Assembly (NCBI GenBank): GCA_902535975.1
Contig: CACAVP010000003.1
Location: 2,533 to 66,532 of the forward strand
Origin: an uncultured Gammaproteobacteria bacterium
GTDB lineage: Bacteria; Pseudomonadota; Gammaproteobacteria; GCA-002705445; GCA-002716945
Direction of reading: 5' to 3'
Length of the DNA stretch: 64,000 bases
Part shown: positions 8,108 through 43,877 of the stretch, one piece after another
Position numbering within the stretch: position 1 is the stretch's first letter
How the letters are laid out: the number at the start of each line of letters is the position of its first letter
Position numbers and translations under genes: made by a program
The notes under the pieces: model-generated
Databases searched by the model: none
The model's input: the letters and a program-made list of their open reading frames with translations, nothing else
What the model was told of the DNA's origin: nothing

Positions 8108-8134
8108 GAGCTTAAATGAGATATAATATTTCTA

Positions 8135-9379
8135 ATGAGTAATGTTAAAAGCACGGACACTCTTGTTGCATTAGACATAGGTACATCTAAAGTATTATGT
8201 CTCGTGGCCGACATTGATGATAAGGGAGAATTAAGGATCATAGGTATCGGCAATGAGCCATGTAGCGGCCTGAATAAGGGTGTTATTTCTGAGATAGATG
8301 CAACTGTATCAAGTATTCGACGAGCAAAAGAGAAAGCTAGCTCAATGTCTACCTGTAATATTCAGTCTGTAACTACAGGAATTGCTGGTAATCATATACA
8401 AAGTTACAACGGAAACGGCGCAGTGAATATTCTTAACGATGAAGTCACCTCTGAAGATAAAGAAAAAGTTCTAAATAACGCACAAAATATTCAGATTCCT
8501 AAAGATCAAGAGATACTTCATTCCATAGAACAACACTATACTATTGATGGGCAGTCAGGCATAAGGGAGCCCCTAGGCATGGCAGGAGCAAGATTAGAGG
8601 CAAATGTTCATATTATTACTACATCATCTACTGCTAAAAGAAATTTAACTAAGTGTATAAATAACAGTTTATTAGAGATCGATGACTATGTTCTTCAACC
8701 GGTGGCCTCTAGTGAGGCTGTTCTGTCTAATGAAGAACGTGATTTAGGTGTTTGTCTCATTGATATCGGCTGCGGGACAACTGACATAGCCATTTTCACA
8801 GAAGGTACTATTAAACATACTGCAGTTATTCCAATTGGTAGTCAGATGATTACGAATGATATAAGAATAATATTATGTACATCATTAGATGCAGCTGAAG
8901 AGATCAAAATACAATACGGTTGTGTTTCATCAGATATTGATACGGATTTGAAAATTCCTGTCCCTTCAGTATCTGATAAGCCAGATACTGAAACAACAAG
9001 AACCATTCTGTCACAAATTATTTCAGCGAGAGTCAATGAAATATTTGATTCGATACAGAAAGAAATCACCAACAGTGGTTATTCAAGCAAGATAAGAGCC
9101 GGAATAGTCTTTACAGGGGGAGGAGCAAAACTCGAGGGATTAGACAGTTTTGCGGAATCCTATTTTCAAAAACCATCAAGAATAGGATCTCCAAAATCAA
9201 TAAAGGGTCTTGAGGATCTTCGTGGAAAAACTAGATATTCTACAGCTGTTGGACTACTTTTATACAGGCATAAGGAGCTTAGCTTAATGTCTGCAAAAAA
9301 TAAATATACTTCCAGGATTGGCTCTATGCTTGACAGATATGCTAAGAAGCTTTCTGATTACTTTCAAAAAGAACTTTAA
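8135..9379 (+). CDS. ftsA: Cell division protein FtsA
   Basis: 414-aa actin-fold protein with ALDIGTSK, DIGCGTTDIA and FTGGGAKLEG motifs. Confidence 0.93.
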   Translation: MSNVKSTDTLVALDIGTSKVLCLVADIDDKGELRIIGIGNEPCSGLNKGVISEIDATVSSIRRAKEKASSMSTCNIQSVTTGIAGNHIQSYNGNGAVNILNDEVTSEDKEKVLNNAQNIQIPKDQEILHSIEQHYTIDGQSGIREPLGMAGARLEANVHIITTSSTAKRNLTKCINNSLLEIDDYVLQPVASSEAVLSNEERDLGVCLIDIGCGTTDIAIFTEGTIKHTAVIPIGSQMITNDIRIILCTSLDAAEEIKIQYGCVSSDIDTDLKIPVPSVSDKPDTETTRTILSQIISARVNEIFDSIQKEITNSGYSSKIRAGIVFTGGGAKLEGLDSFAESYFQKPSRIGSPKSIKGLEDLRGKTRYSTAVGLLLYRHKELSLMSAKNKYTSRIGSMLDRYAKKLSDYFQKEL

Positions 9380-9408
9380 TCATTGTATTATTGTCTAATT
9401 ATTATGAT

Positions 9409-9437
9409 TTGTAAGATTTATGACATTTTGATAGAAT
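9409..9437 (+). promoter_or_regulatory. Candidate sigma70 promoter for lpxC: -35 TTGTAA (9409-9414), 17-nt spacer, -10 TAGAAT (9432-9437)
   Basis: The hexamers were read directly from the sequence. The -10 ends 6 nt before the lpxC ATG and no Shine-Dalgarno is visible. The AT-rich background makes chance matches possible. Confidence 0.35.
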
Positions 9438-9443
9438 TTCGGT

Positions 9444-10352
9444 ATGTTAAAGCAGAGAACATTATCTAGCAGCATAACCGCTACGGGCGTAGGTCTACAT
9501 ACCGGCAAAAAAATTAATTTGAGAATTAATCCTGGGCAACCAGATAGAGGGATAGTGTTTATCCGCACTGATGTGACAAGTGAGCCTATCACGGCATCTT
9601 TAAAAAATGTTCATGACACAAGACTTTCTACTACAATTTCAAATGGCAGTGCTTCTGTATCAACAGTAGAGCATTTATTATCTGCATTAGCTGGTTTAGG
9701 TATTGATAATGCTACTATTGAATTGGATGGACCAGAAGTTCCTATAATGGACGGTAGCTCGCGTCCATTTGTTTTTCTTATACAGTCAGCAGGTATTAGC
9801 GAACAAAATCACCCTAAGAAATTTATAAAAATTACAAAAGATATTCAAGTTAAGCAAAATGATAAATGGGCTAAAATTGAGCCGTTTGATGGATTCAAGG
9901 TTGCTTTTACTATCGACTTTGACCATCCTTCTTTTCCTAAAGAAACCCAAACTTCAACCATAGACTTTTCAACAATTTCCTATTTAAGCCAAGTAAGTCG
10001 AGCAAGAACTTTTGGCTTTGCAAAGGATATAGAGAATTTGAGAAAAAATAACTTAGCACTGGGTGGGAGTGTTAATAATGCAATCGTAATAGACGATTAT
10101 AAAATCGTTAATGAAGATGGACTGAGATACAAGGATGAGTTTGTAAAACATAAAATACTTGATGCAATTGGAGACTTATACCTTCTTGGACATAGCTTAA
10201 TCGGATCTTTCTCTGCATTTAAGTCAGGTCATCATCTGAATAACCTCTTGCTTCGTGAACTTGTCAATAATGAAAATGCATGGGAACAAGTAATCATTGA
10301 GGACGAAGATAAGACACCGATATTATTTACTCATGTTACTGAGTCTATTTGA
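9444..10352 (+). CDS. lpxC: UDP-3-O-acyl-N-acetylglucosamine deacetylase
   Basis: 302 aa, with the N-terminal MLKQRTL...GVGLHTG and [13 protein letters not shown] motifs typical of LpxC. Confidence 0.93.
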
Positions 10353-10611
10353 TCTTAATCTTTAAATCCTGAATATTATATAAACCATGATTTTTGAATA
10401 TTTCTAAATATTTCTCTCTCTCGAATTTAAGTATTGAACCAACAGAACTACTCTCACACTCAATAGTTATATAAGTCTCAGAATAGTTAATCACATGAAT
10501 TTTATGTTTCATATGATCATCAGATACATTGACAAGGATCTCATCTAACTCATCAATAATCTCTTTCTTCTTGAGTATTTTATTAGGTATATAATCGGAT
10601 ATCTTTTTCAT
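10345..10611 (-). CDS. Small DUF721/DciA-like protein (tentative)
   Basis: ORF of 88-98 aa, divergent from secA. Its overall pattern and its lpxC/secA neighbourhood recall DUF721 (DciA helicase-operator) proteins of DnaC-less gammaproteobacteria. I prefer the start at 10611 (MKKISDY) to 10641. Confidence 0.45.
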
Positions 10612-10660
10612 ATAGCATCCATTTATTGTATGATAAACCATATTTCATAATGTATAAAAT

Positions 10661-13240
10661 ATGATAGGAAATATCCTCAAAAAAGTGTTTGGTAGCAGAA
10701 ACTCTAGGCTAATTAAAGATTATGCTACAAGAGTAAAAAAGATTAATGATTTAGAGCAAATCTTTGAAAAAAAATCTGACCAGGAACTCAAATTATTTAC
10801 TCTTGAGCTTAAAAAAAGATACTTTAAGTCCCAAAATCTCAATGAGCTTCTAGAAGAGGCCTATGCTGCAGTTAGGGAAGCATCCAAGAGAACGCTCGGA
10901 CTAAGACATTTTGACGAACAATTACTTGGCGGTATTGCACTTCACGAAGGGAAAATAAGTGAGATGAAAACAGGGGAGGGTAAAACGCTCGTTAGCACAT
11001 TACCTGCATATCTTAATTCATTGAGTGGTAAACCTGTTTACATTGTTACAGTAAATGATTATCTTGCAGAGCGGGATTCAAAATGGATGGGATCTATTTA
11101 CGAATTTTTAGGCCTGACTGTTGGTTTCGTGAACAGTATGGTGGCACCTGATCAAAGGAAGAGTGTATACGATTCTGATATAATCTATGGTACAAATAAT
11201 GAGTTGGGCTTCGATTACTTAAGAGATAACATGGCATATAGTTCTAAGGAAAAATGCCAGACTAGCTTGAACTATGCAATCATTGATGAAGTTGACTCTG
11301 TTCTTATTGATGAAGCTAGAACTCCTCTAATAATATCTGGCTCTAATAACAAAACTAATAGCACTTATTCGGTTATAAATAAAATCATTAGGAAATTCTT
11401 ATCTGAAAATAATACGAATTATTATAATCTCGAAGAGAAACAAAAATCTGTATCATTGACAGAGGAGGGACAGTCCGTTATTGAAGATCTTTTGCTCTCA
11501 AGTAAGCTAATTCAATCATCATCTGATGTATATAATGTGAATAATATCCAATTATTTAGCCATATTGATTCAAGTCTTAAGGCACATTTGATTTACAAGA
11601 AGGATAAAGATTATGTCGTTGAGAATAATGAGATAGTTATTATTGATGAATTTACAGGGAGAAAAATGGCTGGCAGGAGATGGTCAGAAGGGCTCCATCA
11701 AGCAATTGAAGCGAAAGAAAATGTAAGTATAAAACAAGAAAATCAAACATATGCAGCCATTACATTTCAAAATTACTTTAGGATGTTTGATAAAATATGT
11801 GGTATGACGGGAACGGCTGACACAGAAGCAGAGGAGTTCTCACAAATCTATAACCTTGAGGTAGTGCAAATACCGCCTCATAAAAAAATGATTAGAGATG
11901 ATAAAGTAGATTTAGTTTTTCTTACTGAAAAAGAAAAATACGATAGGATAGTAAATGAAATTATAGAAATCAATAAAACAAAGCAACCCATACTTGTTGG
12001 AACTACTTCGGTTGAATCATCTGAATATATATCAAAAATACTTAAATCCAAAAAAATATCTCATAGCGTATTAAATGCAAAATACCATCAAAAAGAGGCT
12101 GAGATTATTCAAAATGCAGGAGCACTCGGATCAATTACAATTGCTACAAATATGGCTGGAAGAGGAACAGACATTGTTCTTGGTGGGAAAAAAGACCAAG
12201 GCACAGATGAATGGATAGTAAATAATAAGAAAGTGAAGGATCTTGGGGGCTTATATGTAGTAGGTACTGAGAGGCATGAGTCTCGACGTATTGATAATCA
12301 ATTGCGCGGTCGATCAGGAAGACAAGGAGATCCAGGTATTTCAAGGTTCTTTCTATCTTTAGAAGATAATTTGATGAGAATTTTTGCTTCTGACAAAGTC
12401 TCAGAAATCATGAAGAAACTTGGCATGGAAGACGGCGAGGCGATTGAACATAAGTGGGTTTCAAAATCTATCGAAAATGCTCAAAAAAGAGTTGAGGCAC
12501 ATAACTTTGACATACGTAAAACTCTTTTGGAGTATGACGATATTTCAAATGAGCAAAGAAAATTAATTTATCAACAAAGAGACTACATTTTGAGCAACAA
12601 CGGAAATACTCTAGTTTCAACAGTTTGTGATAATTATGTCCAAGACTTTATTGAAATTAATAGAGATGAACTTCTCAAGCATGACGTGGAGCTCACCGAC
12701 TTTAACGAGATGATCAAAACCGACTTTCTGCTTGAAATAGATTTTCGTAGCATGATTGAAGGGGATATATTCAACGAAAATAAATTAAAAGAATATCTCC
12801 AGAATCTTTTAATAGAAAAGATAAAAGATAATGTAAAGAGTATTTCAACTGCTGAGTATGACGAGCTGATCAAAAATATTTCACTTGCTGTTATTGATGA
12901 AGAATATAGAAATCATCTAAGCTCTATGGATTATTTGAGACAATCCATAGGATTGAGAGGTTATGCCCAAAAGAATCCAAAAAATGAGTATAAGAGAGAA
13001 TCATTTGAGATGTTTAATATTATGTTAACAGATATCACAAAAGAGATTTTAAAGATTTGTTGTAGAATTAAAATTGAAAATTACAATAGTAGTCCAGCTA
13101 CTGAAACGCTTGATGAGAAAATTATTAAAAAGTCTGATAATCCAGAATGCCTACTGAACACAAGCAGCGGTGATGTGCCGAGAAACAGAAGATGCCCTGT
13201 GACTAACATGAAATTCAAACAATGTTGCGGAAAATTATGA
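10661..13240 (+). CDS. secA: Preprotein translocase ATPase SecA
   Basis: 859 aa with MKTGEGKT and IDEVDSVLIDEARTPLIISG motifs and the C-terminal zinc motif CPVTNMKFKQCCG. Confidence 0.96.
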   Translation: MIGNILKKVFGSRNSRLIKDYATRVKKINDLEQIFEKKSDQELKLFTLELKKRYFKSQNLNELLEEAYAAVREASKRTLGLRHFDEQLLGGIALHEGKISEMKTGEGKTLVSTLPAYLNSLSGKPVYIVTVNDYLAERDSKWMGSIYEFLGLTVGFVNSMVAPDQRKSVYDSDIIYGTNNELGFDYLRDNMAYSSKEKCQTSLNYAIIDEVDSVLIDEARTPLIISGSNNKTNSTYSVINKIIRKFLSENNTNYYNLEEKQKSVSLTEEGQSVIEDLLLSSKLIQSSSDVYNVNNIQLFSHIDSSLKAHLIYKKDKDYVVENNEIVIIDEFTGRKMAGRRWSEGLHQAIEAKENVSIKQENQTYAAITFQNYFRMFDKICGMTGTADTEAEEFSQIYNLEVVQIPPHKKMIRDDKVDLVFLTEKEKYDRIVNEIIEINKTKQPILVGTTSVESSEYISKILKSKKISHSVLNAKYHQKEAEIIQNAGALGSITIATNMAGRGTDIVLGGKKDQGTDEWIVNNKKVKDLGGLYVVGTERHESRRIDNQLRGRSGRQGDPGISRFFLSLEDNLMRIFASDKVSEIMKKLGMEDGEAIEHKWVSKSIENAQKRVEAHNFDIRKTLLEYDDISNEQRKLIYQQRDYILSNNGNTLVSTVCDNYVQDFIEINRDELLKHDVELTDFNEMIKTDFLLEIDFRSMIEGDIFNENKLKEYLQNLLIEKIKDNVKSISTAEYDELIKNISLAVIDEEYRNHLSSMDYLRQSIGLRGYAQKNPKNEYKRESFEMFNIMLTDITKEILKICCRIKIENYNSSPATETLDEKIIKKSDNPECLLNTSSGDVPRNRRCPVTNMKFKQCCGKL

Positions 13241-14400
13241 TGTCTACTAAATTTGTTACCTTGAAGCTAGGAATAAAAAAAAATATATTTGATGGTCTTC
13301 TGATCCATGTTCCAGCAGGTAGTAAAACAGCTATGATCACAACTAAAAATAAGTTTGCTGCCTCACCAGTCGTTGTCTCGAGAGAAAATATCAAATCTGG
13401 AATAATAAAATATATATTTATAAATTCAGGAAATGCAAATGCATGCACTGGGATAGAGGGACATAAGAATACCAAACAAATACTTAGCGTATTATCGAAG
13501 AATCTTGACTGCTCTCCTGATCAGATTCTGATAATGTCTACTGGCATCATAGGAAGGCAACTCCCCATTAAAAAAATTATTGAATCTATAAATAACAGTA
13601 ATTTAAATGTTTACTCAAATATAAAAAAAGCAGCATCAGCAATTATGACTACTGATAAATTTCCGAAATATCTTACAAAGACATATAAAATTGGATCAAA
13701 AAATATTACTTTTAGAGGTATATGTAAGGGCGCTGGTATGATTGAACCAAATATGGCTACCATGCTTAGCTTCGTCGAGACAAACCTTGAATTATCAAAA
13801 ACTTTGCTGAAAAAATATTTAAACTATTGCGCAAATTTATCATTCAATAGCATATCTGTTGATGGTGATATGTCTACAAATGATACCGTAGTATTTTCAT
13901 CGACAGGAAATATAAAATTAAATATGAAGAATAAATCCACTGAAACTAAATTCTTATCATGTGCATCTAATTTTTTTATCAGACTATCATCACTTATAGT
14001 ACAAGATGGGGAGGGAGCAACAAAATTTATCAAGCTTAATGTTATAAATGCAAAAAGTTTAATACTTGCCCAAGAAGTATCAAAGAAATTATCTAGCTCG
14101 ATTCTAGTCAAAACTGCCATGTTTGGAGAGGACCCTAACTGGGGCAGAATAGTTGCCAGTATCGGGTCTATTGAATCCAGTAATATTAAACCTCTTAATG
14201 TTAGACTCATGATTAATAACATTTTATGTTTCAAGGACGGAATATCACTAGATAATGGATCGAAAAAGCTTGAGAAATCCATGCGGAAAAATACAATTGA
14301 AATTACAGTTGACTTGAATCATGGTAAACATAAACAAACTATGTATTTTTGTGATCTTTCACACGATTATGTTCGAATCAATTCAGAATACACAACATAA
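13237..14400 (+). CDS. argJ: Bifunctional ornithine acetyltransferase / N-acetylglutamate synthase ArgJ
   Basis: Contains the autoprocessing site PNMATMLSF. The likely start is ATG 13237, which overlaps the secA TGA (ATGATG). Confidence 0.9.
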   Translation: MMSTKFVTLKLGIKKNIFDGLLIHVPAGSKTAMITTKNKFAASPVVVSRENIKSGIIKYIFINSGNANACTGIEGHKNTKQILSVLSKNLDCSPDQILIMSTGIIGRQLPIKKIIESINNSNLNVYSNIKKAASAIMTTDKFPKYLTKTYKIGSKNITFRGICKGAGMIEPNMATMLSFVETNLELSKTLLKKYLNYCANLSFNSISVDGDMSTNDTVVFSSTGNIKLNMKNKSTETKFLSCASNFFIRLSSLIVQDGEGATKFIKLNVINAKSLILAQEVSKKLSSSILVKTAMFGEDPNWGRIVASIGSIESSNIKPLNVRLMINNILCFKDGISLDNGSKKLEKSMRKNTIEITVDLNHGKHKQTMYFCDLSHDYVRINSEYTT

Positions 14401-15299
14401 TGAGTTTTAAAAAAGTTGAAGTATCAATTGGTTTGATAAGGCTAAAATCATCATTTATTTGTCTCAAGAGACTCGAACAGCCCTATAAAGACTTTATTGA
14501 ATTTCCTGGAGGTAAGAAAAAAAGTAATGAAACAGCAACACAATGTCTCATAAGAGAGATAAAAGAAGAGTTAAATATAAAAATAGATAAGTTTAAGTTC
14601 ATTGCTTCCATAAAGCATCTTTATGATAATGTATTAATTACTATAAATATTTTTAACATCCATGAATACTCTGGAAGAATAGTCTCAAATGAAAATCGCG
14701 ACATTATTCTTTTCGATACAAAATGTACTTTAGATAAGCTTCCTACACATGATCGAATTTTGAGTTTGCTAACATTACCAAAACTATTAAAAATTATCAC
14801 ATTAGATAATCTGCATGAAGATACCTTCTGTAATATAAATTTATATAAATATATTAGATTGAGAGATATTTCCTATAAGATCTATAAATCTCATATTTTA
14901 TCAAAGCTAAAAAAATTTCATTTCAAAGGCAAACTTATAATCGATTATCCATATAATAAAGACTGGGATGATAAATACAGCGGAGTTCATTTTAAGAGCT
15001 GCTACCTTGAACAATTTATCGAAAGAGATAAGAGTAAAAAATACTTATACTCTGCCTCGTGTCACACCCTAAATGATATTAAAACATCTAATAAAAAACT
15101 TTTTGATTTTATAATGATATCTCCTATCCTTAGGTCTCATGATAATTTTAAGGCTATAGGCTGGGATAAGTTTAATATACTCTCCAAAGAATCATATCTA
15201 CCAACTTATGCCTTAGGCGGTGTAAGTTCAAAAGGATCTGACCTTATGAGTTGTACTGATAATCAGGGGTTTGGCTTGGCAGGTATTAGTTCAGTATAA
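14400..15299 (+). CDS. Nudix hydrolase (MutT-like) fused to a TenI/ThiE-like C-terminal domain
   Basis: The Nudix box GGKKKSNETATQCLIREIKEELNI fits Gx5Ex7REUxEExGU. The C-terminal ALGGV...GFGLAGIS resembles thiamine-phosphate-synthase-like domains. This fusion follows argJ in other gammaproteobacteria. Confidence 0.75.
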   Translation: MSFKKVEVSIGLIRLKSSFICLKRLEQPYKDFIEFPGGKKKSNETATQCLIREIKEELNIKIDKFKFIASIKHLYDNVLITINIFNIHEYSGRIVSNENRDIILFDTKCTLDKLPTHDRILSLLTLPKLLKIITLDNLHEDTFCNINLYKYIRLRDISYKIYKSHILSKLKKFHFKGKLIIDYPYNKDWDDKYSGVHFKSCYLEQFIERDKSKKYLYSASCHTLNDIKTSNKKLFDFIMISPILRSHDNFKAIGWDKFNILSKESYLPTYALGGVSSKGSDLMSCTDNQGFGLAGISSV

Positions 15300-16061
15300 T
15301 TATATATAACAGAGGTCAATGACGAATGTAATATCATCTTTGATTTGAATAAATTTATTTTCATCATTTAGAGTCATAAATGAAACTGTTGCTCTTTGTG
15401 GACCAACACTTATGCGAGGAAAAAAATAGTTATCAGAATGCATTGTAATTCTGAGCATCCTCACTTTTTTTTCTGTTTCTAGTTTAAATATGTACATTCC
15501 ATTTTTTGCACACTCTTCTCTAGTCTCTGAACTCTTTCTCAATATATCAAGGCAAAAATGAACAGAATTCTCTATCGGTTTGATTAATTCTAGCCACAAA
15601 TTTATCTGATTTTGCCGGTAGGCATGGTCTCTAGTTAACCAATAATCTAGTTCAGAACTTATAGTGTCACAATGCTTTACACAATGTTGGAATAGTTCAT
15701 CTACGTGAAGATCATTTAAGTAATTTGCTTTAAGATTATGTAATGTATTTAATATAACGGACTGTTTCTCCATGATCGAGTTTAATTTTATTTTATCTGA
15801 GCCCTCGATCTTTACGTACTCTGAGTATCTAGACTTATGAAAATCTATTTCTCTTATCAATTCTCTTTTAACTTCAGCTCTGGACATTGTTTGATATAAA
15901 GCTACGAGACTATTCAGAGCAGCAAATGAATCATAAATAGTATCAATCTCTTTATGCTTATTTATCTTTAAAAAATAATTTTCAAGTTTTAGAAACTTTC
16001 TTATACGCTCATCTACAGGCTCTTCATATATTGCTGCATGATTGTCTGAAAATGTATTCAT
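15300..16061 (-). CDS. zapD: Cell division protein ZapD (FtsZ-binding)
   Basis: 253 aa. The N-terminal IYEEPVDERIRKFLKLE and the C-terminal YFFPRISVG...FVIDLCYI follow the ZapD/YacF pattern. The coaE-zapD operon order matches E. coli. Confidence 0.8.
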   Translation of the reverse strand: MNTFSDNHAAIYEEPVDERIRKFLKLENYFLKINKHKEIDTIYDSFAALNSLVALYQTMSRAEVKRELIREIDFHKSRYSEYVKIEGSDKIKLNSIMEKQSVILNTLHNLKANYLNDLHVDELFQHCVKHCDTISSELDYWLTRDHAYRQNQINLWLELIKPIENSVHFCLDILRKSSETREECAKNGMYIFKLETEKKVRMLRITMHSDNYFFPRISVGPQRATVSFMTLNDENKFIQIKDDITFVIDLCYI

Positions 16062-16615
16062 TTTTTGATAATACCCTTGTCAAAATGTTTATTCAAAGCA
16101 TCAGCGTCATTATCATTACATATCACTAGATCGCACGCTTCCTTTATGAGCTCGAAGTCACGCTGTAAAGCATTTATTTCATCAAAATAGGTACTGTCAA
16201 TATTATTTCGTTTATTGAATCTTTTAATTCTAATTTCCTTTGTTGCATGAATATATATAGATTTATATTTTTGAAATAACTCATAATTATTTATTATAGG
16301 TGGGAGCTCGATCATAAGATTTTCATTTTTATCAAGACTTTTCTTAATGATTTCATGAACAATGGGGTGAAAAACAGCTTCGATAATTTCTCTATTTTTT
16401 TTCGACTTAAAAAATAGCTTTTTTACTATCGCTTCAAGATTATCTTGATCTGGATCTATATTAAGATGTTTTTCAATTTCATAAACTACAGATTCATCAC
16501 TATACAAATTGGAGACTATGTCATCAGATTTAATTATATTAAAGCTGTATTTTTTTGCTATATCAAGAAAAGTACTTTTTCCTGAGCATATCAATCCAGT
16601 TACGAGGTAATTCAT
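16058..16615 (-). CDS. coaE: Dephospho-CoA kinase
   Basis: 185 aa with the P-loop GLICSGKST. It overlaps zapD by 4 nt. Confidence 0.85.
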   Translation of the reverse strand: MNYLVTGLICSGKSTFLDIAKKYSFNIIKSDDIVSNLYSDESVVYEIEKHLNIDPDQDNLEAIVKKLFFKSKKNREIIEAVFHPIVHEIIKKSLDKNENLMIELPPIINNYELFQKYKSIYIHATKEIRIKRFNKRNNIDSTYFDEINALQRDFELIKEACDLVICNDNDADALNKHFDKGIIKK

Positions 16616-16691
16616 TATCGTAGTATTATGGTTAGGAGAATTCCCAAGACCAAGATTATAAGCAAAGTTAGCAGTAATGGTTGTCGTCTTG

Positions 16692-16880
16692 TCATTTTCT
16701 ATTAGGGCAGTGATTTATTTGCTCTTTCGAGGTGCATAAATTATTCTCTAGCACATGAAAACCACACTCATTGCAGATTACCATGCTATCTGGTTTTTCT
16801 TTTTTTTCTTGCGATTTCTTATTCCTTTTAATAAAGAAATAAGCCACAATTAACGATAATAATACGATAATAATTTTCAT
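16692..16880 (-). CDS. Small membrane-anchored Cys/His-cluster protein (PP0621-family-like, tentative)
   Basis: 62 aa with an N-terminal TM helix, a Lys-rich linker, and a C-terminal CNECGFH...C...HCP cluster. Confidence 0.5.
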   Translation of the reverse strand: MKIIIVLLSLIVAYFFIKRNKKSQEKKEKPDSMVICNECGFHVLENNLCTSKEQINHCPNRK

Positions 16881-16934
16881 ACTTTTTTTAATGAAATTAT
16901 TTCATATTAATTGTAATAATTAAACACATCGATT

Positions 16935-17681
16935 ATGAAGAACCAAGATAAAATTGATTTTATTGTAGGGTGGATCACTGATTATGTCAGTAAAATGCCC
17001 AATCCAGCTAAAAGCCTAGTAGTGGGAATCTCAGGTGGAATTGATTCGGCCCTAACAAGCACACTTGCAAGTATGACAGGGTTGAGAACCTTCGCGCTCT
17101 CGATGCCAATAACTACAAACTCCAATAACTCTAATTTGAGCTCTGTGCATGGAAAATGGCTTGAAGATAAATTCACTAACTCGACCTTTATGACGATTGA
17201 TCTGACATCGACCTATATGGAATTCAACTCACTTTTGACAAACTCAGCCCAGGCTTCTGACTTAGGTTTTGCAAATACTAAATCAAGACTTAGAATGGTA
17301 ACACTATATCAAGTTGCTGCAGCTCAAAGCGGTCTTGTAGTCGGAACTGGAAACAAGGTAGAGGATTTTGGAGTAGGATTCTATACTAAGTATGGTGATG
17401 GAGGTGTTGATATTTCACCTATCGCCGATCTTATGAAATCTGAAGTTGCTAGTATTGCAACTACACTTGGTGTCGATGAAAGAATTTTACATGCGCCTCC
17501 TACTGATGGACTCTGGGACGATGATAGAACAGATGAGGTTCAACTTGGTTTGTCATATAATGATTTAGAGGATGCTATGGAAAACGAGTCGTCTATTAAT
17601 AGGTCTAAATATAGCCAAATACGACGATTAAATTTACACAAGATGGAACCAATACCAGTATGCAAGATGCCTAAATCTTAA
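16935..17681 (+). CDS. nadE: NH3-dependent NAD+ synthetase
   Basis: 248 aa with the PP-loop motif SGGIDSA. Confidence 0.9.
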   Translation: MKNQDKIDFIVGWITDYVSKMPNPAKSLVVGISGGIDSALTSTLASMTGLRTFALSMPITTNSNNSNLSSVHGKWLEDKFTNSTFMTIDLTSTYMEFNSLLTNSAQASDLGFANTKSRLRMVTLYQVAAAQSGLVVGTGNKVEDFGVGFYTKYGDGGVDISPIADLMKSEVASIATTLGVDERILHAPPTDGLWDDDRTDEVQLGLSYNDLEDAMENESSINRSKYSQIRRLNLHKMEPIPVCKMPKS

Positions 17682-17686
17682 AATAG

Positions 17687-18526
17687 CTAAAATAAACCAA
17701 AATCAAAAAAAGAACTTTCCTCAATTACTTTTTCAACACTCATATCTTGTATAACCACTAAGTCATTTTTATCAATAGCATAAGTATAATTACTGAAGTT
17801 AGCAGTCAATACTTTTGCTGTTTCAATTGCTAAATTTGTTGATCCTAATTTATTGTAACTTTCTATAAGTATTATTAGTGCCTCCTTAGATGCAGGAGCA
17901 CCTGGATAAGTTTCAAGCATATATTTTGCTCTTTCACTTGATGCGATAAAGGCACCTCTTTTTAGATAGTATTCAGCGATGTACACTTCATGATTAGCCA
18001 TACTATTCCTTAGAAATACGAGTCTGTTCTCAGCGTCATTCGCGTATTTACTACCTTTAAATCTGTTGCTTATGAGCAAAAAATCGTTGTACGCCTTTTT
18101 TAGTCGCGTTACATCATATTTTGATATATCTTGCCCTAAGAATTCTTGAAAAAATGGTTGTTCCTTCTCAAGATTTGAGAGTGCACGAAGATAATATGCA
18201 TAATCTAAACTTTGATGATTTGGGTATAAATCTATGAAACGATCACATTCAGCAATTGCATCATCTTTTTGTCCAAAGTCATAGTATGCATATGCAAGAT
18301 CGAGTATTGATTGCTGTGCGTATGTAGAAAATGGATACCTAGCTTCCAGCATTTCAAACATAATAACTGCCTGAGGTATATCAGCATTTCCTAAAAAAGC
18401 TGAACCTTCATTATATAGTTCTACTTCGGTCATACCATCGTATGGATTCACTTTTGCTTTATCAAGAAAAGCACAGCCAGTAAGGGAAAATAATATGCAA
18501 ATTAAGGAAAGATAAAATATTTTCAT
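17687..18526 (-). CDS. bamD: Outer membrane protein assembly factor BamD
   Basis: Lipoprotein signal (LFSLTGC) followed by TPR-like repeats. The arrangement divergent from rluD matches E. coli. Confidence 0.85.
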   Translation of the reverse strand: MKIFYLSLICILFSLTGCAFLDKAKVNPYDGMTEVELYNEGSAFLGNADIPQAVIMFEMLEARYPFSTYAQQSILDLAYAYYDFGQKDDAIAECDRFIDLYPNHQSLDYAYYLRALSNLEKEQPFFQEFLGQDISKYDVTRLKKAYNDFLLISNRFKGSKYANDAENRLVFLRNSMANHEVYIAEYYLKRGAFIASSERAKYMLETYPGAPASKEALIILIESYNKLGSTNLAIETAKVLTANFSNYTYAIDKNDLVVIQDMSVEKVIEESSFFDFGLF

Positions 18527-18529
18527 CAG

Positions 18530-18541
18530 TATAATATTATA
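18530..18541. promoter_or_regulatory. 12-bp perfect palindrome TATAATATTATA: back-to-back -10 boxes for divergent bamD and rluD
   Basis: Read directly from the sequence. TATAAT on the + strand lies 8 nt before the rluD ATG, and TATAAT on the - strand lies 9 nt before the bamD ATG. The whole divergent spacer is only 17 bp. Confidence 0.4.
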
Positions 18542-18543
18542 AC

Positions 18544-19479
18544 ATGGAAGGAGATAATATTTATAATTTTACCCTTGAGGTAGAAAAAGAAGATAGAATT
18601 GATAAGCTTCTATCAAATTATTTTATAGAATATTCAAGATCTACCATACAAAAGTGGATAGCGAGCAAGAATGTAGAAATAAATGGCAACATATGCTCAC
18701 AAAAAGATAGAGTCAAAAATAATTGTTCTATATCGATTAATATTTCATCTGAACCTGAAGTTAACCTGGTAGGTGAAGATATTACAATTGATGTGATAGA
18801 TGAGACTGATGATTATATTGTAGTAAACAAGGCTTCAGGTATAGTGACACATATTGCACCAGGCAATTATACTGGAACACTTCAGAATGCATTATTCTAT
18901 AGATATCCTGAGCTGGCCAATGTCCCACGGACAGGAATTATCCATAGATTGGATAAAGATACCTCTGGGATATTAGTAGTTTCAAAGAACCTTAGATCGC
19001 ATAATTACTTAAGTAAGCAGCTACAGGAACAAAAGTTTAAGAAAATATATCATGCACTAGTGTATGGCTCATTTGATAAGTCTATGAGAATTGATGAACC
19101 TATTGGAAGACATCCTATTAATAGAAAAAAAATGGCAGTTTCATCCCATGGAAAATTAGCTTGCTCCATTGTAAAGCCACTTAAAATTAGAGAAAAGATT
19201 TCGCATCTACAAGTTCAGATTATAACTGGGAGAACACATCAAATCAGAGTCCACCTATCACATAAAAATTTTCCACTCATCGGTGATACGTTGTATGGAT
19301 TTAAAAAAAATAGCTTTTCTAAATCTCCAAAAATATTTGATTCTATAGTTACAGATTTCGGTCAGTACTTACATGCGTATTCTCTGTCATTTTATGATCC
19401 TCTATCTAATAAGATGAGAGAATATCGCGCAAATTATCCAGAAGAATACCAGGTATTACTTGATACGCTAAATGATTAA
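18544..19479 (+). CDS. rluD: 23S rRNA pseudouridine synthase RluD
   Basis: 311 aa with an S4 domain and the RluA-family catalytic motif HRLDKDTSG, followed by pgeF as in E. coli. Confidence 0.88.
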   Translation: MEGDNIYNFTLEVEKEDRIDKLLSNYFIEYSRSTIQKWIASKNVEINGNICSQKDRVKNNCSISINISSEPEVNLVGEDITIDVIDETDDYIVVNKASGIVTHIAPGNYTGTLQNALFYRYPELANVPRTGIIHRLDKDTSGILVVSKNLRSHNYLSKQLQEQKFKKIYHALVYGSFDKSMRIDEPIGRHPINRKKMAVSSHGKLACSIVKPLKIREKISHLQVQIITGRTHQIRVHLSHKNFPLIGDTLYGFKKNSFSKSPKIFDSIVTDFGQYLHAYSLSFYDPLSNKMREYRANYPEEYQVLLDTLND

Positions 19480-19485
19480 AATGAC

Positions 19486-24764: not shown

Positions 24765-24861
24765 AAAATTTGTGGCATTATAGCATTAAATTTAAAAGAG
24801 ATAAAATAAGATTTTTTTTGTATAATAATTTAGAACTCAAAATTAACTTAACTCAATAACA

Positions 24862-31676: not shown

Positions 31677-31702
31677 ACAAATTATACTGCCTTATTTTTT
31701 CA

Positions 31703-32560: not shown

Positions 32561-32561
32561 T

Positions 32562-33062: not shown

Positions 33063-33087
33063 ATTTTAGAGTATATATTAAATTTAA

Positions 33088-34224: not shown

Positions 34225-34226
34225 GA

Positions 34227-34688: not shown

Positions 34689-34696
34689 ATTTCTCC

Positions 34697-35032: not shown

Positions 35033-35073
35033 GACAGTATTATATATATGAATGACCTTTATTAAAACATTTT

Positions 35074-36495: not shown

Positions 36496-36587
36496 TTATC
36501 TACTCATTAGCTATCTTTTCCTATATTAAATAATCTAAATGTACTAATATAGTTGCATTATATTATAACTCAAGAGGTACCATAAAG

Positions 36588-36818: not shown

Positions 36819-36820
36819 AA

Positions 36821-39057: not shown

Positions 39058-40032
<975 letters not shown>

Positions 40033-40078
40033 CATGATGTCATGGATGGATAAGGAGAAATTGGTAGGTAACAAATAA

Positions 40079-40852: not shown

Positions 40853-40942
40853 GAAAAACCCTATACCTAAGGTCATTTTTTCTGTTTAACCTTAAATCTC
40901 ATGGGTTATAATGCACCATATAATTTAATATCTTAGAAGTAT

Positions 40943-42484
40943 ATGAATAAAGATCATTTAATAATATTTGATACTACATTGAGAGACGGTGAGCAAAGTC
41001 CTGGAGCTTCAATGGATATCGAAGAGAAAATACAAATTGCTAATGCATTGAGTGATCTTAATGTCGATGTCATTGAAGCTGGTTTTCCAATTGCAAGTAA
41101 TGGAGATTATAGTGCCGTCAAAGAAATAGCTGACAGCATATCTAATTCAAGAATTTGCGCGCTTGCAAGAGCTCTGGAGAAGGATATTCTCAGAGCAGCC
41201 GATGCATTAAAGAATGCCAAATACTCAAGAATACATACTTTCATTGCAACTTCGCCAATACATATGGAAATGAAATTAAAAATGTCTCCAGAAGAAGTTA
41301 TCAAGAATGCCGTTAATGCAGTTAAGATGGCTAGGGATCATGTTGAAGACGTTGAATTTTCTCCCGAAGATGCCGGGAGATCAGATTTTAATTTTCTTTG
41401 TAAAATTATAGAGAAAGTTATTGATGCAGGAGCTTCTACAATTAATATACCTGATACTGTGGGTTATAATCTTCCACATCAGTTTGGTGATCTCATATCA
41501 AGAATTATTGATAATGTTCCCAATTCAAATGATGCAATTTTTTCAGTCCACTGTCACAACGATCTTGGATTAGCAGTTTCCAATTCTCTATCATCGGTAT
41601 TGAATGGCGCAAGGCAAGTTGAATGCACTATCAATGGGTTAGGTGAAAGAGCGGGTAATGCTGCACTTGAGGAGATAGTTATGACTGTGAAAACTCGCAG
41701 AGATATTTTTTCATGCGATACTAGGATAAATACAAAAAAGATTATGAATTGCTCAAGGCTTGTATCAAGCATAACAGGTTTTCCTGTCCAGCCAAATAAA
41801 GCAATTGTTGGTAAGAATGCTTTTGCGCATGAATCAGGAATTCATCAAGATGGAATAATTAAATCAAGAGAAACTTATGAAATCATGAAAGCTGAAGATA
41901 TCGGACTGCTAAGTAATTCATTAGTCCTGGGCAAACACTCAGGCCGTAATGCCTTTAAGCAGAAACTTGATGAACTTAACATTCAATATACATCTGATGA
42001 TGCATTCAATGATTTATTCACCAGGTTCAAGGAGCTTGCAGATAAAAAACATGAAATATATGATGAGGACATAATCCGACTATCCAATAATATCCCTCTA
42101 ACAGGTGACGATATACAATTGAGTTACATGTCGGTTGTTTGTGATTCACACAAAAAACCAAATGCTAAGATTAAGCTAAGTATCAAAGGCGAAGAAAGAG
42201 AGGCTACAGCTGAGGGTGACGGTGCTGTGGATGCTGCTTTTAATGCAATCAAAGCAATTATAGATCTTAAGGTAGACCTTAGGTTATATTCAGTGAATAA
42301 TATAACTTCAGGCACTGATGCACAGGGTGAAGTAACAGTTAGAGTTGTAAAAGATGAGCTTATTGTTAACGGGCATGGCGCTGATACGGATATTGTGAAA
42401 GCATCTGTTTTAGCTTACCTAAATGCAATAAACAAAATTTATCAGAATCCTGATCTTGCTACAAAAAAATTGTCGGGTATATAA
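40943..42484 (+). CDS. leuA: 2-isopropylmalate synthase
   Basis: 513 aa (FDTTLRDGEQSPG, HCHNDLGLA, C-terminal LeuA dimerisation/regulatory domain). Confidence 0.95.
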   Translation: MNKDHLIIFDTTLRDGEQSPGASMDIEEKIQIANALSDLNVDVIEAGFPIASNGDYSAVKEIADSISNSRICALARALEKDILRAADALKNAKYSRIHTFIATSPIHMEMKLKMSPEEVIKNAVNAVKMARDHVEDVEFSPEDAGRSDFNFLCKIIEKVIDAGASTINIPDTVGYNLPHQFGDLISRIIDNVPNSNDAIFSVHCHNDLGLAVSNSLSSVLNGARQVECTINGLGERAGNAALEEIVMTVKTRRDIFSCDTRINTKKIMNCSRLVSSITGFPVQPNKAIVGKNAFAHESGIHQDGIIKSRETYEIMKAEDIGLLSNSLVLGKHSGRNAFKQKLDELNIQYTSDDAFNDLFTRFKELADKKHEIYDEDIIRLSNNIPLTGDDIQLSYMSVVCDSHKKPNAKIKLSIKGEEREATAEGDGAVDAAFNAIKAIIDLKVDLRLYSVNNITSGTDAQGEVTVRVVKDELIVNGHGADTDIVKASVLAYLNAINKIYQNPDLATKKLSGI

Positions 42485-43122
42485 TGTCACGGAAGCATGA
42501 GTTATTAAACCTTATGAATATCGATACTTCATGGATGAAAAACATACCTAATGGCAAAATGAATTTGTTAAGCTTTAACAACCTTGAATTGGAAGCTAAA
42601 AACTGTGATGCATGCTCATTATCGAATACAAGGAATAATGTAGTTTTCGGTAAAGGCGACCAAAAAGCTAAAGTGCTTATAATTGGTGAAGCTCCTGGGA
42701 AAGATGAAGACCTGAGCGGTGAACCTTTTGTTGGAAGGGCTGGTAAACTTCTTAACGAAATACTGTTCTCAATGAAACTTTCAAGAGACAATGTTTATAT
42801 CACGAATACTGTTAAATGCAGACCGCCAGAGAACAGAAATCCTAATAGTGATGAAATCAATTCGTGCTCAAGATTCTTGGATGGACAGATTAGTTTAATT
42901 TCCCCCTCTATTATTATCCTTTTGGGTAAAGTTGCTGCTGAGAGACTCATGAATACATCTGAACCAATGTCCTTCTTAAGAGGCAAAGTGCATTATTATA
43001 AAAACACTGATATACCTATGTTGGTATTTTATCATCCGGCATATTTATTGAGAAGTCCTTCAGAAAAAAGTAAAGTTTGGGATGATATCTTGTTAATGAA
43101 AAGCATTACCCATGGCAGTTAA
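42484..43122 (+). CDS. udg: Uracil-DNA glycosylase, family 4
   Basis: Contains the GEAPG motif and Cys residues for a 4Fe-4S cluster (CDAC...VKCRPP...C). The start could be an internal Met. Confidence 0.8.
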   Translation: MSRKHELLNLMNIDTSWMKNIPNGKMNLLSFNNLELEAKNCDACSLSNTRNNVVFGKGDQKAKVLIIGEAPGKDEDLSGEPFVGRAGKLLNEILFSMKLSRDNVYITNTVKCRPPENRNPNSDEINSCSRFLDGQISLISPSIIILLGKVAAERLMNTSEPMSFLRGKVHYYKNTDIPMLVFYHPAYLLRSPSEKSKVWDDILLMKSITHGS

Positions 43123-43573
43123 AAGTTCAGAACTATATAGATTCATTCCAATGAGAGTGAAGGACTTAGATATGATTTATGAGCTCGAGATAAAATCATA
43201 TGATTTTCCTTGGACCAAGGAAATTTTAAGAGACTGTATTCTTTACAACTATGATTCATATTCCGTTTTCTTTGGAGATGAGATTGTAGGTTACATAATT
43301 TCAAAGATTTCATATCCTGAGACTCATATCCTTAATCTTACTGTCAACTCGCAATTTAGAAACAATGGCATTGGAGGCTCTTTGGTACAACTCATCATAA
43401 ATGATGCTCGAATAAGGAATTCTCAAGATATAATCCTTGAAGTAAGGTCTAGTAATAAAATAGCTCAATCACTATATAAAAAACTGTTATTTAAACAAAT
43501 TGGAGTCAGAAAGGATTATTACGATTGTAATGAAGGCAGAGAAGATGCCTATGTACTCAAATTAGAGTTATAG
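43112..43573 (+). CDS. rimI: Ribosomal-protein-alanine N-acetyltransferase
   Basis: 153-aa GNAT fold (QFRNNGIGGSL). Confidence 0.8.
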   Translation: MAVKSSELYRFIPMRVKDLDMIYELEIKSYDFPWTKEILRDCILYNYDSYSVFFGDEIVGYIISKISYPETHILNLTVNSQFRNNGIGGSLVQLIINDARIRNSQDIILEVRSSNKIAQSLYKKLLFKQIGVRKDYYDCNEGREDAYVLKLEL

Positions 43574-43834
43574 CTCATTGGGAGACTTTGCAGTTATCGA
43601 AAGTGCATGGATTTCAGTTTTCATCAACTTGTCTAATGTCTTGTAAATTAATTTATGCCTGTTAATCACACTCATATTGTCAAAAAACTTAGATACGATA
43701 TATAGCTTAAAATGCCCGCCAGATTTCGCTCCGGCGTGGCCGACATGTAGATGGCCCTCATCTTCGATATCTATCTTTGATGGCTCGAGACACGATAAAT
43801 CATGTTTTATCATTTTAATTCTTTCTTCGGTCAT
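43568..43834 (-). CDS. BolA family protein
   Basis: 88 aa with HVGHAG...HF and RHKLIY motifs typical of BolA/IbaG. Confidence 0.82.
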   Translation of the reverse strand: MTEERIKMIKHDLSCLEPSKIDIEDEGHLHVGHAGAKSGGHFKLYIVSKFFDNMSVINRHKLIYKTLDKLMKTEIHALSITAKSPNEL

Positions 43835-43877
43835 ATTTGTATTATATGTTAAAATATTAATATGACAGATAGAAAAT

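What the first reader, a model, noticed from the sequence alone, without database searches (positions are those of the whole stretch)
8122..43846. Recurrent TATAAT boxes 6-12 nt upstream of SD-less start codons: candidate leaderless or near-leaderless transcripts
Read directly from the sequence, as -10 hexamer, spacing, then start codon:
- ftsA: TATAAT (8122-8127), 7 nt, ATG.
- lpxC: TAGAAT (9432-9437), 6 nt, ATG, with -35 TTGTAA at 17-bp spacing.
- secA: CATAAT (10646-10651), 9 nt, ATG.
- rluD: TATAAT (18530-18535), 8 nt, ATG.
- bamD: TATAAT (minus strand, 18536-18541), 9 nt, ATG.
- Upstream cytochrome c: TATAAT (minus, 24777-24782), 12 nt, ATG.
- soxX: TATAAT (minus, 35039-35044), 6 nt, ATG.
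- bolA: TATAAT (minus, 43841-43846), 6 nt, ATG.

Supporting contrast:
- None of these starts has a recognisable Shine-Dalgarno.
- Other genes in the same window (ilvC AGGAG, hom GAGGAG, tusA AGAGG, ftsK GAGG, trxB AAGGA) clearly do.

Interpretation:
- With transcription starting about 7 nt after a -10 box, these mRNAs would begin at or within a few nt of the AUG.
- Six exact TATAAT hexamers in such a narrow positional window seems more than AT-richness alone should give, but I cannot compute the background.
- Leaderless initiation is rare in well-studied gammaproteobacteria.
- An alternative is that these A/U-rich blocks act as S1-dependent translation enhancers rather than promoters.
Basis: partly seen in the sequence, partly recalled or inferred. 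Interest (0 to 1): 0.6.

Follow-up and report, generated by a model that had tools for sequence, protein, structure and literature searches.

The report
Promoter boxes abutting start codons
In this small-genome marine bacterium about one gene in twenty has its promoter "-10 box" placed so close to the start codon that the mRNA should begin at the ATG itself. This is a real, conserved signal, but of a kind already predicted in other bacteria.

Summary
For seven named genes the N-termini line up with curated protein profiles.

Genome-wide (819 kb, 841 usable genes), exact TATAAT lies 5-9 nt before the start codon in 34 genes. Position-preserving shuffles give 7.7±2.8, and the 19 other A3T3 hexamers average about 9. 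The only other enriched hexamers at that position are Shine-Dalgarno (SD) type.

The boxes sit at heads of transcription units and are under selection. A same-genus genome keeps 16 of 19, against 31% for composition-matched hexamers.

By gene:
- **bolA:** box at 5-6 nt in 28 of 30 family genomes.
- **soxX:** same box in every genus, but 6 nt from the ATG only in this genus.
- **lpxC:** conserved -35, 17-bp spacer and TG.
- **Cytochrome c (12 nt):** conserved promoter with a short leader.
- **secA (CATAAT):** not conserved.

Best reading: sigma-70 -10 elements producing leaderless or near-leaderless mRNAs, for about 5% of genes and about 13% of unit heads. No RNA data could be consulted. This is a new member of a known kind (TA-led genes, GeneMarkS-2 group C).

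The parts
8122..8127 (+). TATAAT, 7 nt before the ftsA ATG (8135). Candidate internal promoter of the dcw cluster giving a leaderless ftsA mRNA.
   Evidence: Sequence read. The hexamer is invariant in all 9 genus genomes while the 7-8 nt spacer varies in sequence; other genera have TATTAT at 5 nt. The ftsA N-terminus is in register with its profile.
9409..9437 (+). Complete sigma-70 promoter of lpxC: TTGTAA (9409-9414), 17-bp spacer ending in TG (9429-9430), TAGAAT (9432-9437), then 6 nt to the ATG at 9444.
   Evidence: It is the only one of the five sites in the scanned stretch (8000-19000) that the two-hexamer scan picks up, and it is flagged with TG. The -35, spacer length, TG and -10 are conserved in all 9 genus genomes, while the sequence just after the ftsA stop varies. 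lpxC residue 2 = profile position 1.
10646..10651 (+). CATAAT, 9 nt before the secA ATG (10661). Not supported as a functional box.
   Evidence: Replaced by unrelated sequence in 5 of 9 genus genomes. The conserved block lies further upstream, at about 10612-10637.
18527..18543 (.). 17-bp bamD-rluD junction. TATAAT for rluD is at 18530-18535 (+), 8 nt from the ATG at 18544. TATAAT for bamD is at 18536-18541 (-), 9 nt from the ATG at 18526, and is preceded by TGT. The two start-codon A's are 18 bp apart.
   Evidence: The 17-bp length, both ATGs and bamD's TATAAT are kept in 8 relatives down to 66% protein identity. 18533 (A) and 18537 (T) are invariant; they serve as -11A/-7T for rluD and -7T/-11A for bamD if the start sites are the two ATGs. 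That is the geometry described for bidirectional promoters (PMC10268837).
24777..24785 (-). TGcTATAAT extended -10 box, 12 nt before the ATG (24764) of the first of two cytochrome c genes. A conserved promoter with a leader of about 5 nt, so not leaderless.
   Evidence: The promoter block TTTTATCTC...TGcTATAAT is conserved across the family, at 12 nt spacing in this genus and about 17 nt in other genera. Pfam identifies the product as cytochrome c.
35039..35044 (-). TATAAT, 6 nt before the soxX ATG (35032). Promoter of the soxXYZA string.
   Evidence: It is invariant at 6 nt in all 12 genus genomes, with variable spacer sequence. In most of the other-genus genomes retrieved the same box lies 11-19 nt from the ATG, in some with a GAGG SD in between.
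43841..43846 (-). TATAAT, 6 nt before the bolA ATG (43834). Divergent from trpS.
   Evidence: TATAAT or TATACT is found at 5-6 nt in 28 of 30 family genomes across five genera, while the spacer and upstream sequences vary.
33070..33075 (-). Additional one-mismatch candidate: TATACT, 7 nt before the ATG (33062) of the lipoprotein gene after soxA.
   Evidence: Not tested for conservation, and boxes of this class are frequent by chance.
46676..46681 (-). Additional one-mismatch candidate: TATATT, 8 nt before the ATG (46667) of a divergent gene with a 30-bp spacer.
   Evidence: Not tested for conservation.

Best explanation
The hexamers are sigma-70 promoter -10 elements.

In this genus of streamlined marine gammaproteobacteria (genomes about 1 Mb, 94% coding, median gene spacer 3 nt), a minority of promoters sit with the -10 box ending 5-9 nt before the start codon. 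RNA polymerase would then start at the A of the ATG or 1-3 nt before it. The mRNA would have no room for a Shine-Dalgarno sequence and would have to be translated as a leaderless message, with the ribosome binding a 5'-terminal AUG.

- **Affected genes in the window:** ftsA, lpxC, rluD, bamD, soxX and bolA.
- **Affected genes elsewhere:** about 40 in total, including iscR, dnaN, dnaB, rpoD, purF, nuoA and mrdA.
- **Scale:** about 5% of genes and about 13% of transcription-unit heads.
- **Shown:** the positional, hexamer-specific enrichment; the link to unit heads; purifying selection on the box and on spacer length but not spacer sequence; correct start codons.
- **Inferred:** the transcription start position and leaderless translation.
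For: **Enrichment**
- TATAAT at 5-9 nt: 34 observed against 7.7±2.8 in column shuffles. The other A3T3 hexamers average about 9.
- The spacing profile has sharp edges. Counts at 4, 5, 6, 7, 8, 9 and 10 nt are 1, 4, 8, 7, 9, 6 and 1.
- This matches the 6-8 nt distance reported for leaderless genes (PMC6028130).
- The same peak is seen in a second genome of the genus, 42 against 12.4±3.3.

**Link to transcription-unit heads**
- Exact boxes occur before 8.5% of divergent genes and 7.7% of co-directional genes with a spacer of 25 nt or more.
- They occur before 0 of 323 overlapping genes.
- With a 12-24 nt spacer, the counts are 4 of 18 divergent against 1 of 37 co-directional.

**Selection**
- 16 of 19 boxes are kept in a same-genus orthologue, against 22 of 72 control hexamers (Fisher p = 3.8e-5). 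The surrounding 20 nt are only 64% identical.

**Promoter nature**
- lpxC has a conserved TTGTAA, 17-bp spacer, TG and TAGAAT.
- The soxX and cytochrome c boxes are conserved family-wide at varying distance from the ATG.
- bolA keeps a box at 5-6 nt in 28 of 30 genomes.

**Start codons**
- N-termini are in register with curated profiles. Examples: lpxC, iscR, dnaN, fdx, and purF with its obligatory Met-Cys start.
Against: - No transcript 5' ends were seen.
- The set as a whole has no -35 consensus and only a mild TG excess, 15% against 5%. A two-hexamer promoter scan of the region finds no more sites than shuffles do.
- For spacings of 8-9 nt, polymerase may start 1-3 nt before the ATG. In E. 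coli such stubs are translated worse than a true 5'-AUG (own knowledge).
- Several of the genes are essential and co-directional with upstream genes (ftsA, lpxC, soxX). Read-through transcripts could therefore be the main templates.
- 3 of the 34 genes have TTG or GTG as the first start, which does not suit leaderless initiation.
- My gene calls use a home-made ORF picker with the first-start rule.
Confidence: 0.72

Rival explanations
1. The boxes are genuine promoters, but the leaderless or stub-leader RNAs contribute little protein. Most translation would come from longer transcripts that start further upstream: read-through from the preceding gene, or promoters inside the neighbouring gene. 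Those transcripts would be translated by the same SD-independent route as the 82% of genes without an SD core.
For: - ftsA, lpxC and soxX follow co-directional genes after 27-64 nt, and no terminator-like site was found in the ftsA and lpxC spacers (the soxX spacer was not scanned).
- Only 18% of genes have an SD core although the 16S tail is intact, so SD-less internal initiation must be routine here.
- In other genera the same soxX promoter works with an 11-19 nt leader.
Against: - Divergent genes with 17-43 bp spacers (bamD, rluD, bolA) have no co-directional upstream gene.
- Spacer length is held at 5-9 nt across species. This is unexplained if the position relative to the ATG did not matter.
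Confidence: 0.14
2. UAUAAU acts at the RNA level, as an A/U-rich, S1-dependent translation enhancer occupying the place of the SD sequence in a leadered mRNA.
For: The box occupies the same 5-9 nt window as SD sequences and almost never co-occurs with them. The set shows no -35 consensus.
Against: - Enrichment is specific to TATAAT and its shifted frames. Equally A/U-rich hexamers are not enriched: AAATTT 10, TTTAAA 4, ATTTAA 4, TAAATT 3.
- There are none before 323 overlapping operon-internal genes, and divergent genes are favoured over co-directional ones at equal spacer length.
- The soxX and cytochrome c boxes keep their sequence but not their distance to the ATG across genera.
- lpxC has a -35 and TG in register.
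Confidence: 0.05
3. The pattern is a by-product of AT-rich spacers, of the stop codon inside TATAAT, or of mis-called start codons.
For: - The genome has 34% G+C and holds 1513 TATAAT hexamers.
- TA-TAA-T contains a stop codon that can define the first ATG. It is in frame for lpxC's TAG and rluD's TAA.
- One-mismatch boxes are largely chance, 64 expected of 106 seen.
Against: - Column shuffles and composition-matched hexamers, several of which also contain TAA, give 3-21 against 34.
- The spacings show no 3-nt periodicity.
- Orthologue retention is 84% against 31%.
- N-termini match curated profiles.
Confidence: 0.04

Closest known systems
TA-led (leaderless) genes of Zheng et al. 2011 (PMC3160421) and GeneMarkS-2 group C genomes (PMC6028130), e.g. 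Mycobacterium tuberculosis and Deinococcus radiodurans (PMC12340547)
   Same: - A -10-like box (TANNNT or TATAAT) sits 6-8 nt before the start codon of first genes in operons.
- It occupies the same position as the SD sequence in other genes.
- Two competing motifs (Pribnow box and SD) are found upstream of starts.
- The share of genes, about 4-5%, equals the 3.0-5.7% reported for the gammaproteobacteria that showed the signal.
   Different: - The share of transcription-unit heads is about 13%, below the 25-50% of group C.
- The lineage is an uncultured, streamlined marine gammaproteobacterial family, not Actinobacteria, Deinococcus-Thermus, Xanthomonadales or Legionellales.
- The box here is the full TATAAT rather than TANNNT.
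- In the known cases the 5' ends were mapped. Here they are not.
Classical leaderless mRNAs of E. coli elements: lambda cI from PRM and Tn1721 tetR (own knowledge)
   Same: Gammaproteobacterial sigma-70 promoters whose start site is the A of the AUG. Translation proceeds without an SD sequence.
   Different: Those are isolated regulatory genes of mobile elements. Here the set comprises dozens of chromosomal housekeeping genes (lpxC, ftsA, bamD, dnaN, dnaB, rpoD, purF, iscR).
Bidirectional promoters with divergent start sites 18 bp apart (Warman et al. 2021, as described in PMC10268837 and PMC12825309)
   Same: At bamD/rluD the two start-codon A's are 18 bp apart. -7T and -11A of one strand pair with -11A and -7T of the other. 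Each +1 A supplies the other promoter's -18T.
   Different: - In the described cases one of the two RNAs is often non-coding or antisense, and both carry leaders.
- Here both products would be leaderless mRNAs of conserved genes, and the whole spacer is 17 bp.
- An alternative register exists, with two adjacent exact TATAAT boxes at 8 and 9 nt spacing.
- The start sites are not mapped.

Membership tests
Leaderless (TA-led) gene architecture, Zheng 2011 / GeneMarkS-2 group C | A -10-like motif localised about 6-8 nt upstream of translation starts, above shuffled background | tested here: met
   34 observed against 7.7±2.8 at 5-9 nt, with sharp edges at 4 and 10 nt. Repeated in a second genus genome, 42 against 12.4.
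Leaderless (TA-led) gene architecture, Zheng 2011 / GeneMarkS-2 group C | The motif is tied to first genes in operons, not to internal genes | tested here: met
   Boxes occur before 8.5% of divergent genes and 0 of 323 overlapping genes. At equal spacer length (12-24 nt), 4 of 18 divergent against 1 of 37 co-directional.
Leaderless (TA-led) gene architecture, Zheng 2011 / GeneMarkS-2 group C | A large share of operons is leaderless (25-50% in group C) | tested here: not met
   The excess is about 42 of 330 unit heads, or about 13%. The genome has a TA-led minority class, as in Zheng's gammaproteobacteria, and is not a group C genome.
Leaderless (TA-led) gene architecture, Zheng 2011 / GeneMarkS-2 group C | The primary transcript 5' end coincides with the start codon | not testable with these tools
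Leaderless (TA-led) gene architecture, Zheng 2011 / GeneMarkS-2 group C | The start codon is AUG (or GUG) and is correctly placed | tested here: met
   31 of 34 genes start with ATG. N-termini are in register with curated profiles for lpxC, ftsA, bamD, rluD, bolA, iscR, dnaN, purF and fdx.
Sigma-70 promoter | -10 hexamer with A at position 2 and T at position 6, under selection | tested here: met
   16 of 19 boxes are retained in orthologues against 31% for controls. bolA, soxX and cytochrome c boxes are conserved family-wide.
Sigma-70 promoter | -35 hexamer at 16-18 bp, or an extended -10 TG | tested here: inconclusive
   Present and conserved for lpxC (-35 plus TG) and for bamD and cytochrome c (TG). 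The 34-gene set has no -35 consensus, and TG is found in 15% against 5% of controls.
Symmetric bidirectional promoter (Warman et al. 2021) | Divergent start sites 18 bp apart, with reciprocal -7T/-11A and -18T | tested here: inconclusive
   The sequence geometry fits exactly at 18526/18544 if the start sites are the two ATGs, and it is conserved in 8 relatives. The start sites are unmapped. Genome-wide there is no sharp peak at 17-bp spacers, only a cluster at 17-22 bp.
S1-dependent A/U-rich translation enhancer | Low-specificity A/U-rich tract in the 5' UTR that acts independently of promoter position | tested here: not met
   The enrichment is hexamer-specific, the box is absent from operon-internal genes, and its distance to the ATG varies across genera.

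The most novel reading that the evidence does not exclude
The 17-bp bamD-rluD junction is a single symmetric bidirectional promoter. Its two transcription start sites are the A's of the two start codons, 18 bp apart. One RNA-polymerase binding site would then produce two leaderless mRNAs in opposite directions, with each gene's start codon forming part of the other gene's promoter.

More broadly, genome streamlining in this genus would have eroded short leaders down to zero, as in the soxX series: 19, 14, 11 and 6 nt. Leaderless initiation would then be a regular mode of expression for essential genes in a gammaproteobacterium that keeps an intact anti-SD but uses SD at only about 18% of genes.
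Probability: 0.35. Interest if true: 0.6.

Novelty: new member of a known kind. Interest (0 to 1): 0.4.

Why it matters
**Practical value**
- The result improves start-codon and operon annotation for an abundant uncultured marine lineage.
- It identifies roughly 40 genes whose promoters can be read straight off the sequence.

**Conceptual value**
- It adds a streamlined free-living gammaproteobacterium to the organisms that combine weak SD use with a leaderless minority.
- It provides a natural evolutionary series in which the same soxX promoter has 19, 14, 11 or 6 nt leaders in sister genera. This series can test whether leader loss accompanies genome compaction.
- It offers a compact 17-bp test object for the idea that symmetric bidirectional promoters can serve two coding genes at once.

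It does not reveal a new mechanism.

Tried and rejected
- **RNA evidence:** No 5' ends could be examined.
- **Two-hexamer sigma-70 scan** of 8000-19000: 49 sites against 57±8 in shuffles, so uninformative. Only lpxC is recovered.
- **-35 consensus** in the 34-gene set: none found.
- **In-frame stop artefact** (the TAA inside TATAAT defining the first ATG): rejected. Spacings show no 3-nt periodicity, and TAA-containing control hexamers are not enriched.
- **Pyrimidine at -1 and an ATG excess** as extra leaderless marks: both trends are weak and not significant.
- **Sharp genome-wide peak of divergent gene pairs at a 17-bp spacer:** not found, only a loose cluster at 17-22 bp.
- **Trough at 10-16 nt spacing:** in this genome boxes fall to background there and rise again at 20-24 nt. 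The trough is much less clear in the second genus genome, so I do not build on it.
- **Naming the lineage:** record titles say only uncultured or MAG gammaproteobacterium, with one labelled Ectothiorhodospiraceae.
- **Literature on leaderless genes in streamlined marine bacteria:** nothing specific to this lineage.

Full report
**1. The observation**

Each ATG is the first possible start after an in-frame stop.

NCBIfam profiles identify ftsA, lpxC, secA, rluD, bamD, soxX and bolA. Their N-termini are in register with the profiles: lpxC residue 2 = position 1, ftsA 5 = 5, bamD 4 = 3, rluD 16 = 17, bolA 14 = 13. The starts therefore cannot lie further upstream, and homology leaves no room for them to lie much further downstream.

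None of the eight has a GGAG, GAGG or AGGA core upstream.

**2. The genome**

- The window is part of a 30-contig, 819-kb assembly with 34% G+C, estimated 75% complete.
- Relatives are uncultured marine gammaproteobacteria (single-cell and metagenome bins from open ocean and the Black Sea) with genomes of about 1.0-1.1 Mb.
- With a simple ORF caller of my own I obtained 867 genes, 94% coding density and a median spacer of 3 nt.
- The 3' end of the 16S rRNA reads GGATCACCTCCTA, so the anti-SD is intact.
- Only 18% of genes have a 4-nt SD core at -18 to -4. Lacking an SD is thus the rule here, not a special mark of the eight genes.

**3. Is it more than chance?**

Exact TATAAT with 5-9 nt to the start codon occurs before 34 of 841 genes.

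- The counts at 4, 5, 6, 7, 8, 9 and 10 nt are 1, 4, 8, 7, 9, 6 and 1. Other positions hold 0-5 each.
- The 19 other hexamers made of three A and three T give 3-21 in the same window, mean about 9. The highest are frame-shifted readings of TATAAT itself.
- Shuffling each upstream column among genes keeps position-specific composition. It gives 7.7±2.8 (z 9.5).
- The only other hexamers enriched at this place are SD-type: TAGGAG, AGGAGA, GAGGAG. Two signals therefore compete for the same position, as described for genomes with leaderless genes (PMC6028130, PMC12340547).
- The window's 5 exact boxes at 5-9 nt compare with about 0.65 expected.
- One-mismatch boxes are mostly noise, 106 seen against 64 expected. 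The lpxC TAGAAT and secA CATAAT needed separate evidence.

**4. Promoter element or RNA element?**

*Position in transcription units*
- Exact boxes precede 8.5% of divergent genes and 7.7% of co-directional genes with a spacer of 25 nt or more.
- They precede 3.5% of those with a 0-24 nt spacer and none of 323 overlapping genes.
- At equal spacer length (12-24 nt) the counts are 4 of 18 divergent against 1 of 37 co-directional.

*Selection*
- I compared 404 orthologue pairs with a same-genus genome. Median protein identity was 79%, and the 20 nt before starts were 64% identical.
- TATAAT stays at 5-9 nt in 16 of 19 cases, against 22 of 72 for the other A3T3 hexamers (Fisher p = 3.8e-5).
- Spacer sequences change freely, while spacer length stays in range.

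*Individual loci*
- **lpxC** has TTGTAA, a 17-bp spacer ending in TG, TAGAAT, then 6 nt to the ATG. This is conserved in all nine genus genomes, while the sequence just upstream is variable.
- **soxX** has TATAAT 6 nt before the ATG in all twelve genus genomes. In most of the other-genus genomes retrieved the same box, with its conserved upstream context, lies 11-19 nt from the ATG, sometimes with a GAGG in between.
- **Cytochrome c** has a TGcTATAAT box conserved family-wide, at 12 nt here and about 17 nt elsewhere.
- **bolA** keeps TATAAT or TATACT at 5-6 nt in 28 of 30 family genomes across five genera.
- **ftsA** has an invariant TATAAT in the genus, with a 7-8 nt variable spacer.
- **secA**'s CATAAT is not conserved.

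A sequence that keeps its identity while its distance to the ATG varies behaves as a promoter, not as a ribosome-binding enhancer. An S1-type A/U-rich enhancer would also not single out one hexamer among equally A/U-rich ones.

**5. What follows for the transcripts**

- The 5-9 nt window corresponds to the sixth to tenth base after the -10 element. This is the range in which sigma-70 RNA polymerase chooses its start, with the seventh preferred (own knowledge). It also matches the 6-8 nt reported for predicted leaderless genes (PMC6028130).
- At 6 nt (lpxC, soxX, bolA) the A of the ATG is the expected +1.
- At 7-9 nt (ftsA, rluD, bamD) the start could be the A, or a base 1-3 nt before it.
- The cytochrome c gene would have a leader of about 5 nt.
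- Counting the excess over shuffles, about 42 genes carry a proximal box. That is about 5% of genes and about 13% of 330 putative transcription-unit heads.
- Outside the window the set consists of ordinary housekeeping genes: iscR, fdx, dnaN, dnaB, rpoD, purF, purM, guaB, ispG, fabG, mrdA, murJ, lptD, mlaA, nuoA, rbfA, queA, bioC and a Fur-family regulator.
- Several of these have N-termini matching profiles residue for residue.

**6. Distribution among relatives**

| Genome | TATAAT at 5-9 nt | Shuffle expectation | Positional peak |
|---|---|---|---|
| Second genus genome (937 kb) | 42 | 12.4±3.3 | yes |
| Sister-genus genome | 21 | 8.6 | no; spread evenly from 5 to 30 nt |
| Outgroup, 42% G+C (400 kb sample) | 2 | 1.7±1.2 | none |
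| Outgroup, 51% G+C (400 kb sample) | 3 | 0.6±0.8 | none (too few to judge) |

In the sister genus the pattern implies short leaders of all lengths. The preference for the leaderless position therefore looks like a trait of this genus, with single genes such as bolA sharing it family-wide.

**7. The bamD-rluD junction**

- The spacer is 17 bp. Its length, both ATGs and bamD's TATAAT are kept in eight relatives down to 66% protein identity.
- The two start-codon A's (18526 on the minus strand, 18544 on the plus strand) are 18 bp apart.
- 18537 is T and 18533 is A. These are -7T/-11A for rluD and, on the other strand, -11A/-7T for bamD. Each A also supplies the other's -18T.
- This is the geometry described for symmetric bidirectional promoters (PMC10268837, citing Warman et al. 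2021).
- An alternative register uses the two adjacent exact TATAAT boxes with 8 and 9 nt spacers. The sequence cannot decide between the two.
- Genome-wide there is a loose cluster of divergent pairs with 17-22 bp spacers but no sharp peak at 17.

**8. Comparison with what is known**

- A -10 box about 10 nt before translation starts is the established computational mark of bacterial leaderless genes.
- Zheng et al. found it in 15 of 239 gammaproteobacterial genomes at 3.0-5.7% of genes, mainly in Xanthomonadales and Legionellales (PMC3160421).
- GeneMarkS-2 places 5.6% of Proteobacteria in its leaderless group C, where 25-50% of operons are affected (PMC6028130).
- The role of the motif has been shown experimentally in Deinococcus (PMC12340547).
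- The present genome matches the first description. It falls short of group C in the share of operons.
- I found no paper on this lineage.

**9. Limits**

- No RNA data could be used.
- Gene calls come from a simple first-start ORF picker.
- The comparison genomes were sampled, not complete.
- The second genus genome looks fragmented, with 1184 ORFs in 937 kb.
- The -35 evidence is locus-specific.

**10. Verdict**

The leaderless or near-leaderless reading is the best-supported explanation for six of the eight genes: ftsA, lpxC, rluD, bamD, soxX and bolA. The cytochrome c gene has a short leader, and secA is not supported. The phenomenon is a new member of a known kind, of moderate interest. 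The bidirectional bamD-rluD junction and the soxX leader series are the parts most worth an experiment.

Noticed in passing
window 9380-9443; relatives G004:C2:421926-422957 and G009:C3:27890-28876: ftsZ is absent from the slot between ftsA and lpxC, but it is not lost from the lineage. 31 of 37 family genomes have a full ftsZ, which lies about 15 kb upstream of lpxC on the same contig. In this assembly that position falls beyond the start of contig C3.
   Followed up: partly
whole genome; 16S 3' end on contig C2, minus strand: Only 18% of genes have a 4-nt Shine-Dalgarno core, although the 16S rRNA tail (GGATCACCTCCTA) is intact. Most translation starts here must be SD-independent.
   Followed up: partly
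window 35033-35073 and loci L041-L070: The soxX promoter forms an evolutionary series. The same TATAAT box lies 6 nt from the ATG in this genus and 11, 14 or 18-19 nt from it in sister genera. The longest leaders carry a GAGG.
   Followed up: yes
window 24765-24830, minus strand: The promoter region of the two-gene cytochrome c unit (TTTTATCTC...TGcTATAAT) is almost invariant across six genera, far more conserved than other spacers. This suggests a regulator site or very strong constraint.
   Followed up: partly
window 10345-10641, minus strand, and 10612-10637: A 98-aa ORF with no Pfam or NCBIfam match sits between lpxC and secA, where E. coli has secM, but on the opposite strand. The block TTATTGTATGATAAACCATAT upstream of secA is conserved in the genus; it may be that ORF's 5' coding end or the real secA promoter.
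   Followed up: no
window 43835-43877: In the 43-bp bolA-trpS spacer the minus-strand TATAAT of bolA abuts a plus-strand TGtTAAAAT, 22 nt before the trpS ATG. This is back-to-back promoters again, but trpS would have a leader of about 15 nt without an SD.
   Followed up: partly
whole genome, divergent gene pairs: Ten of 100 divergent gene pairs have spacers of only 11-22 bp. Each promoter must therefore overlap the partner's start codon or coding sequence.
   Followed up: partly
whole genome, upstream regions: In this genome TATAAT boxes are at background level 10-16 nt before starts and rise again at 20-24 nt, hinting that leaders of 4-10 nt are avoided. The trough is much weaker in the second genus genome.
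   Followed up: partly
locus G010:C3:54612-55519: In one same-genus bin the lpxC match is split into three pieces by a TAA, a TAG and frame changes. This is probably an assembly error rather than a pseudogene of an essential gene.
   Followed up: no
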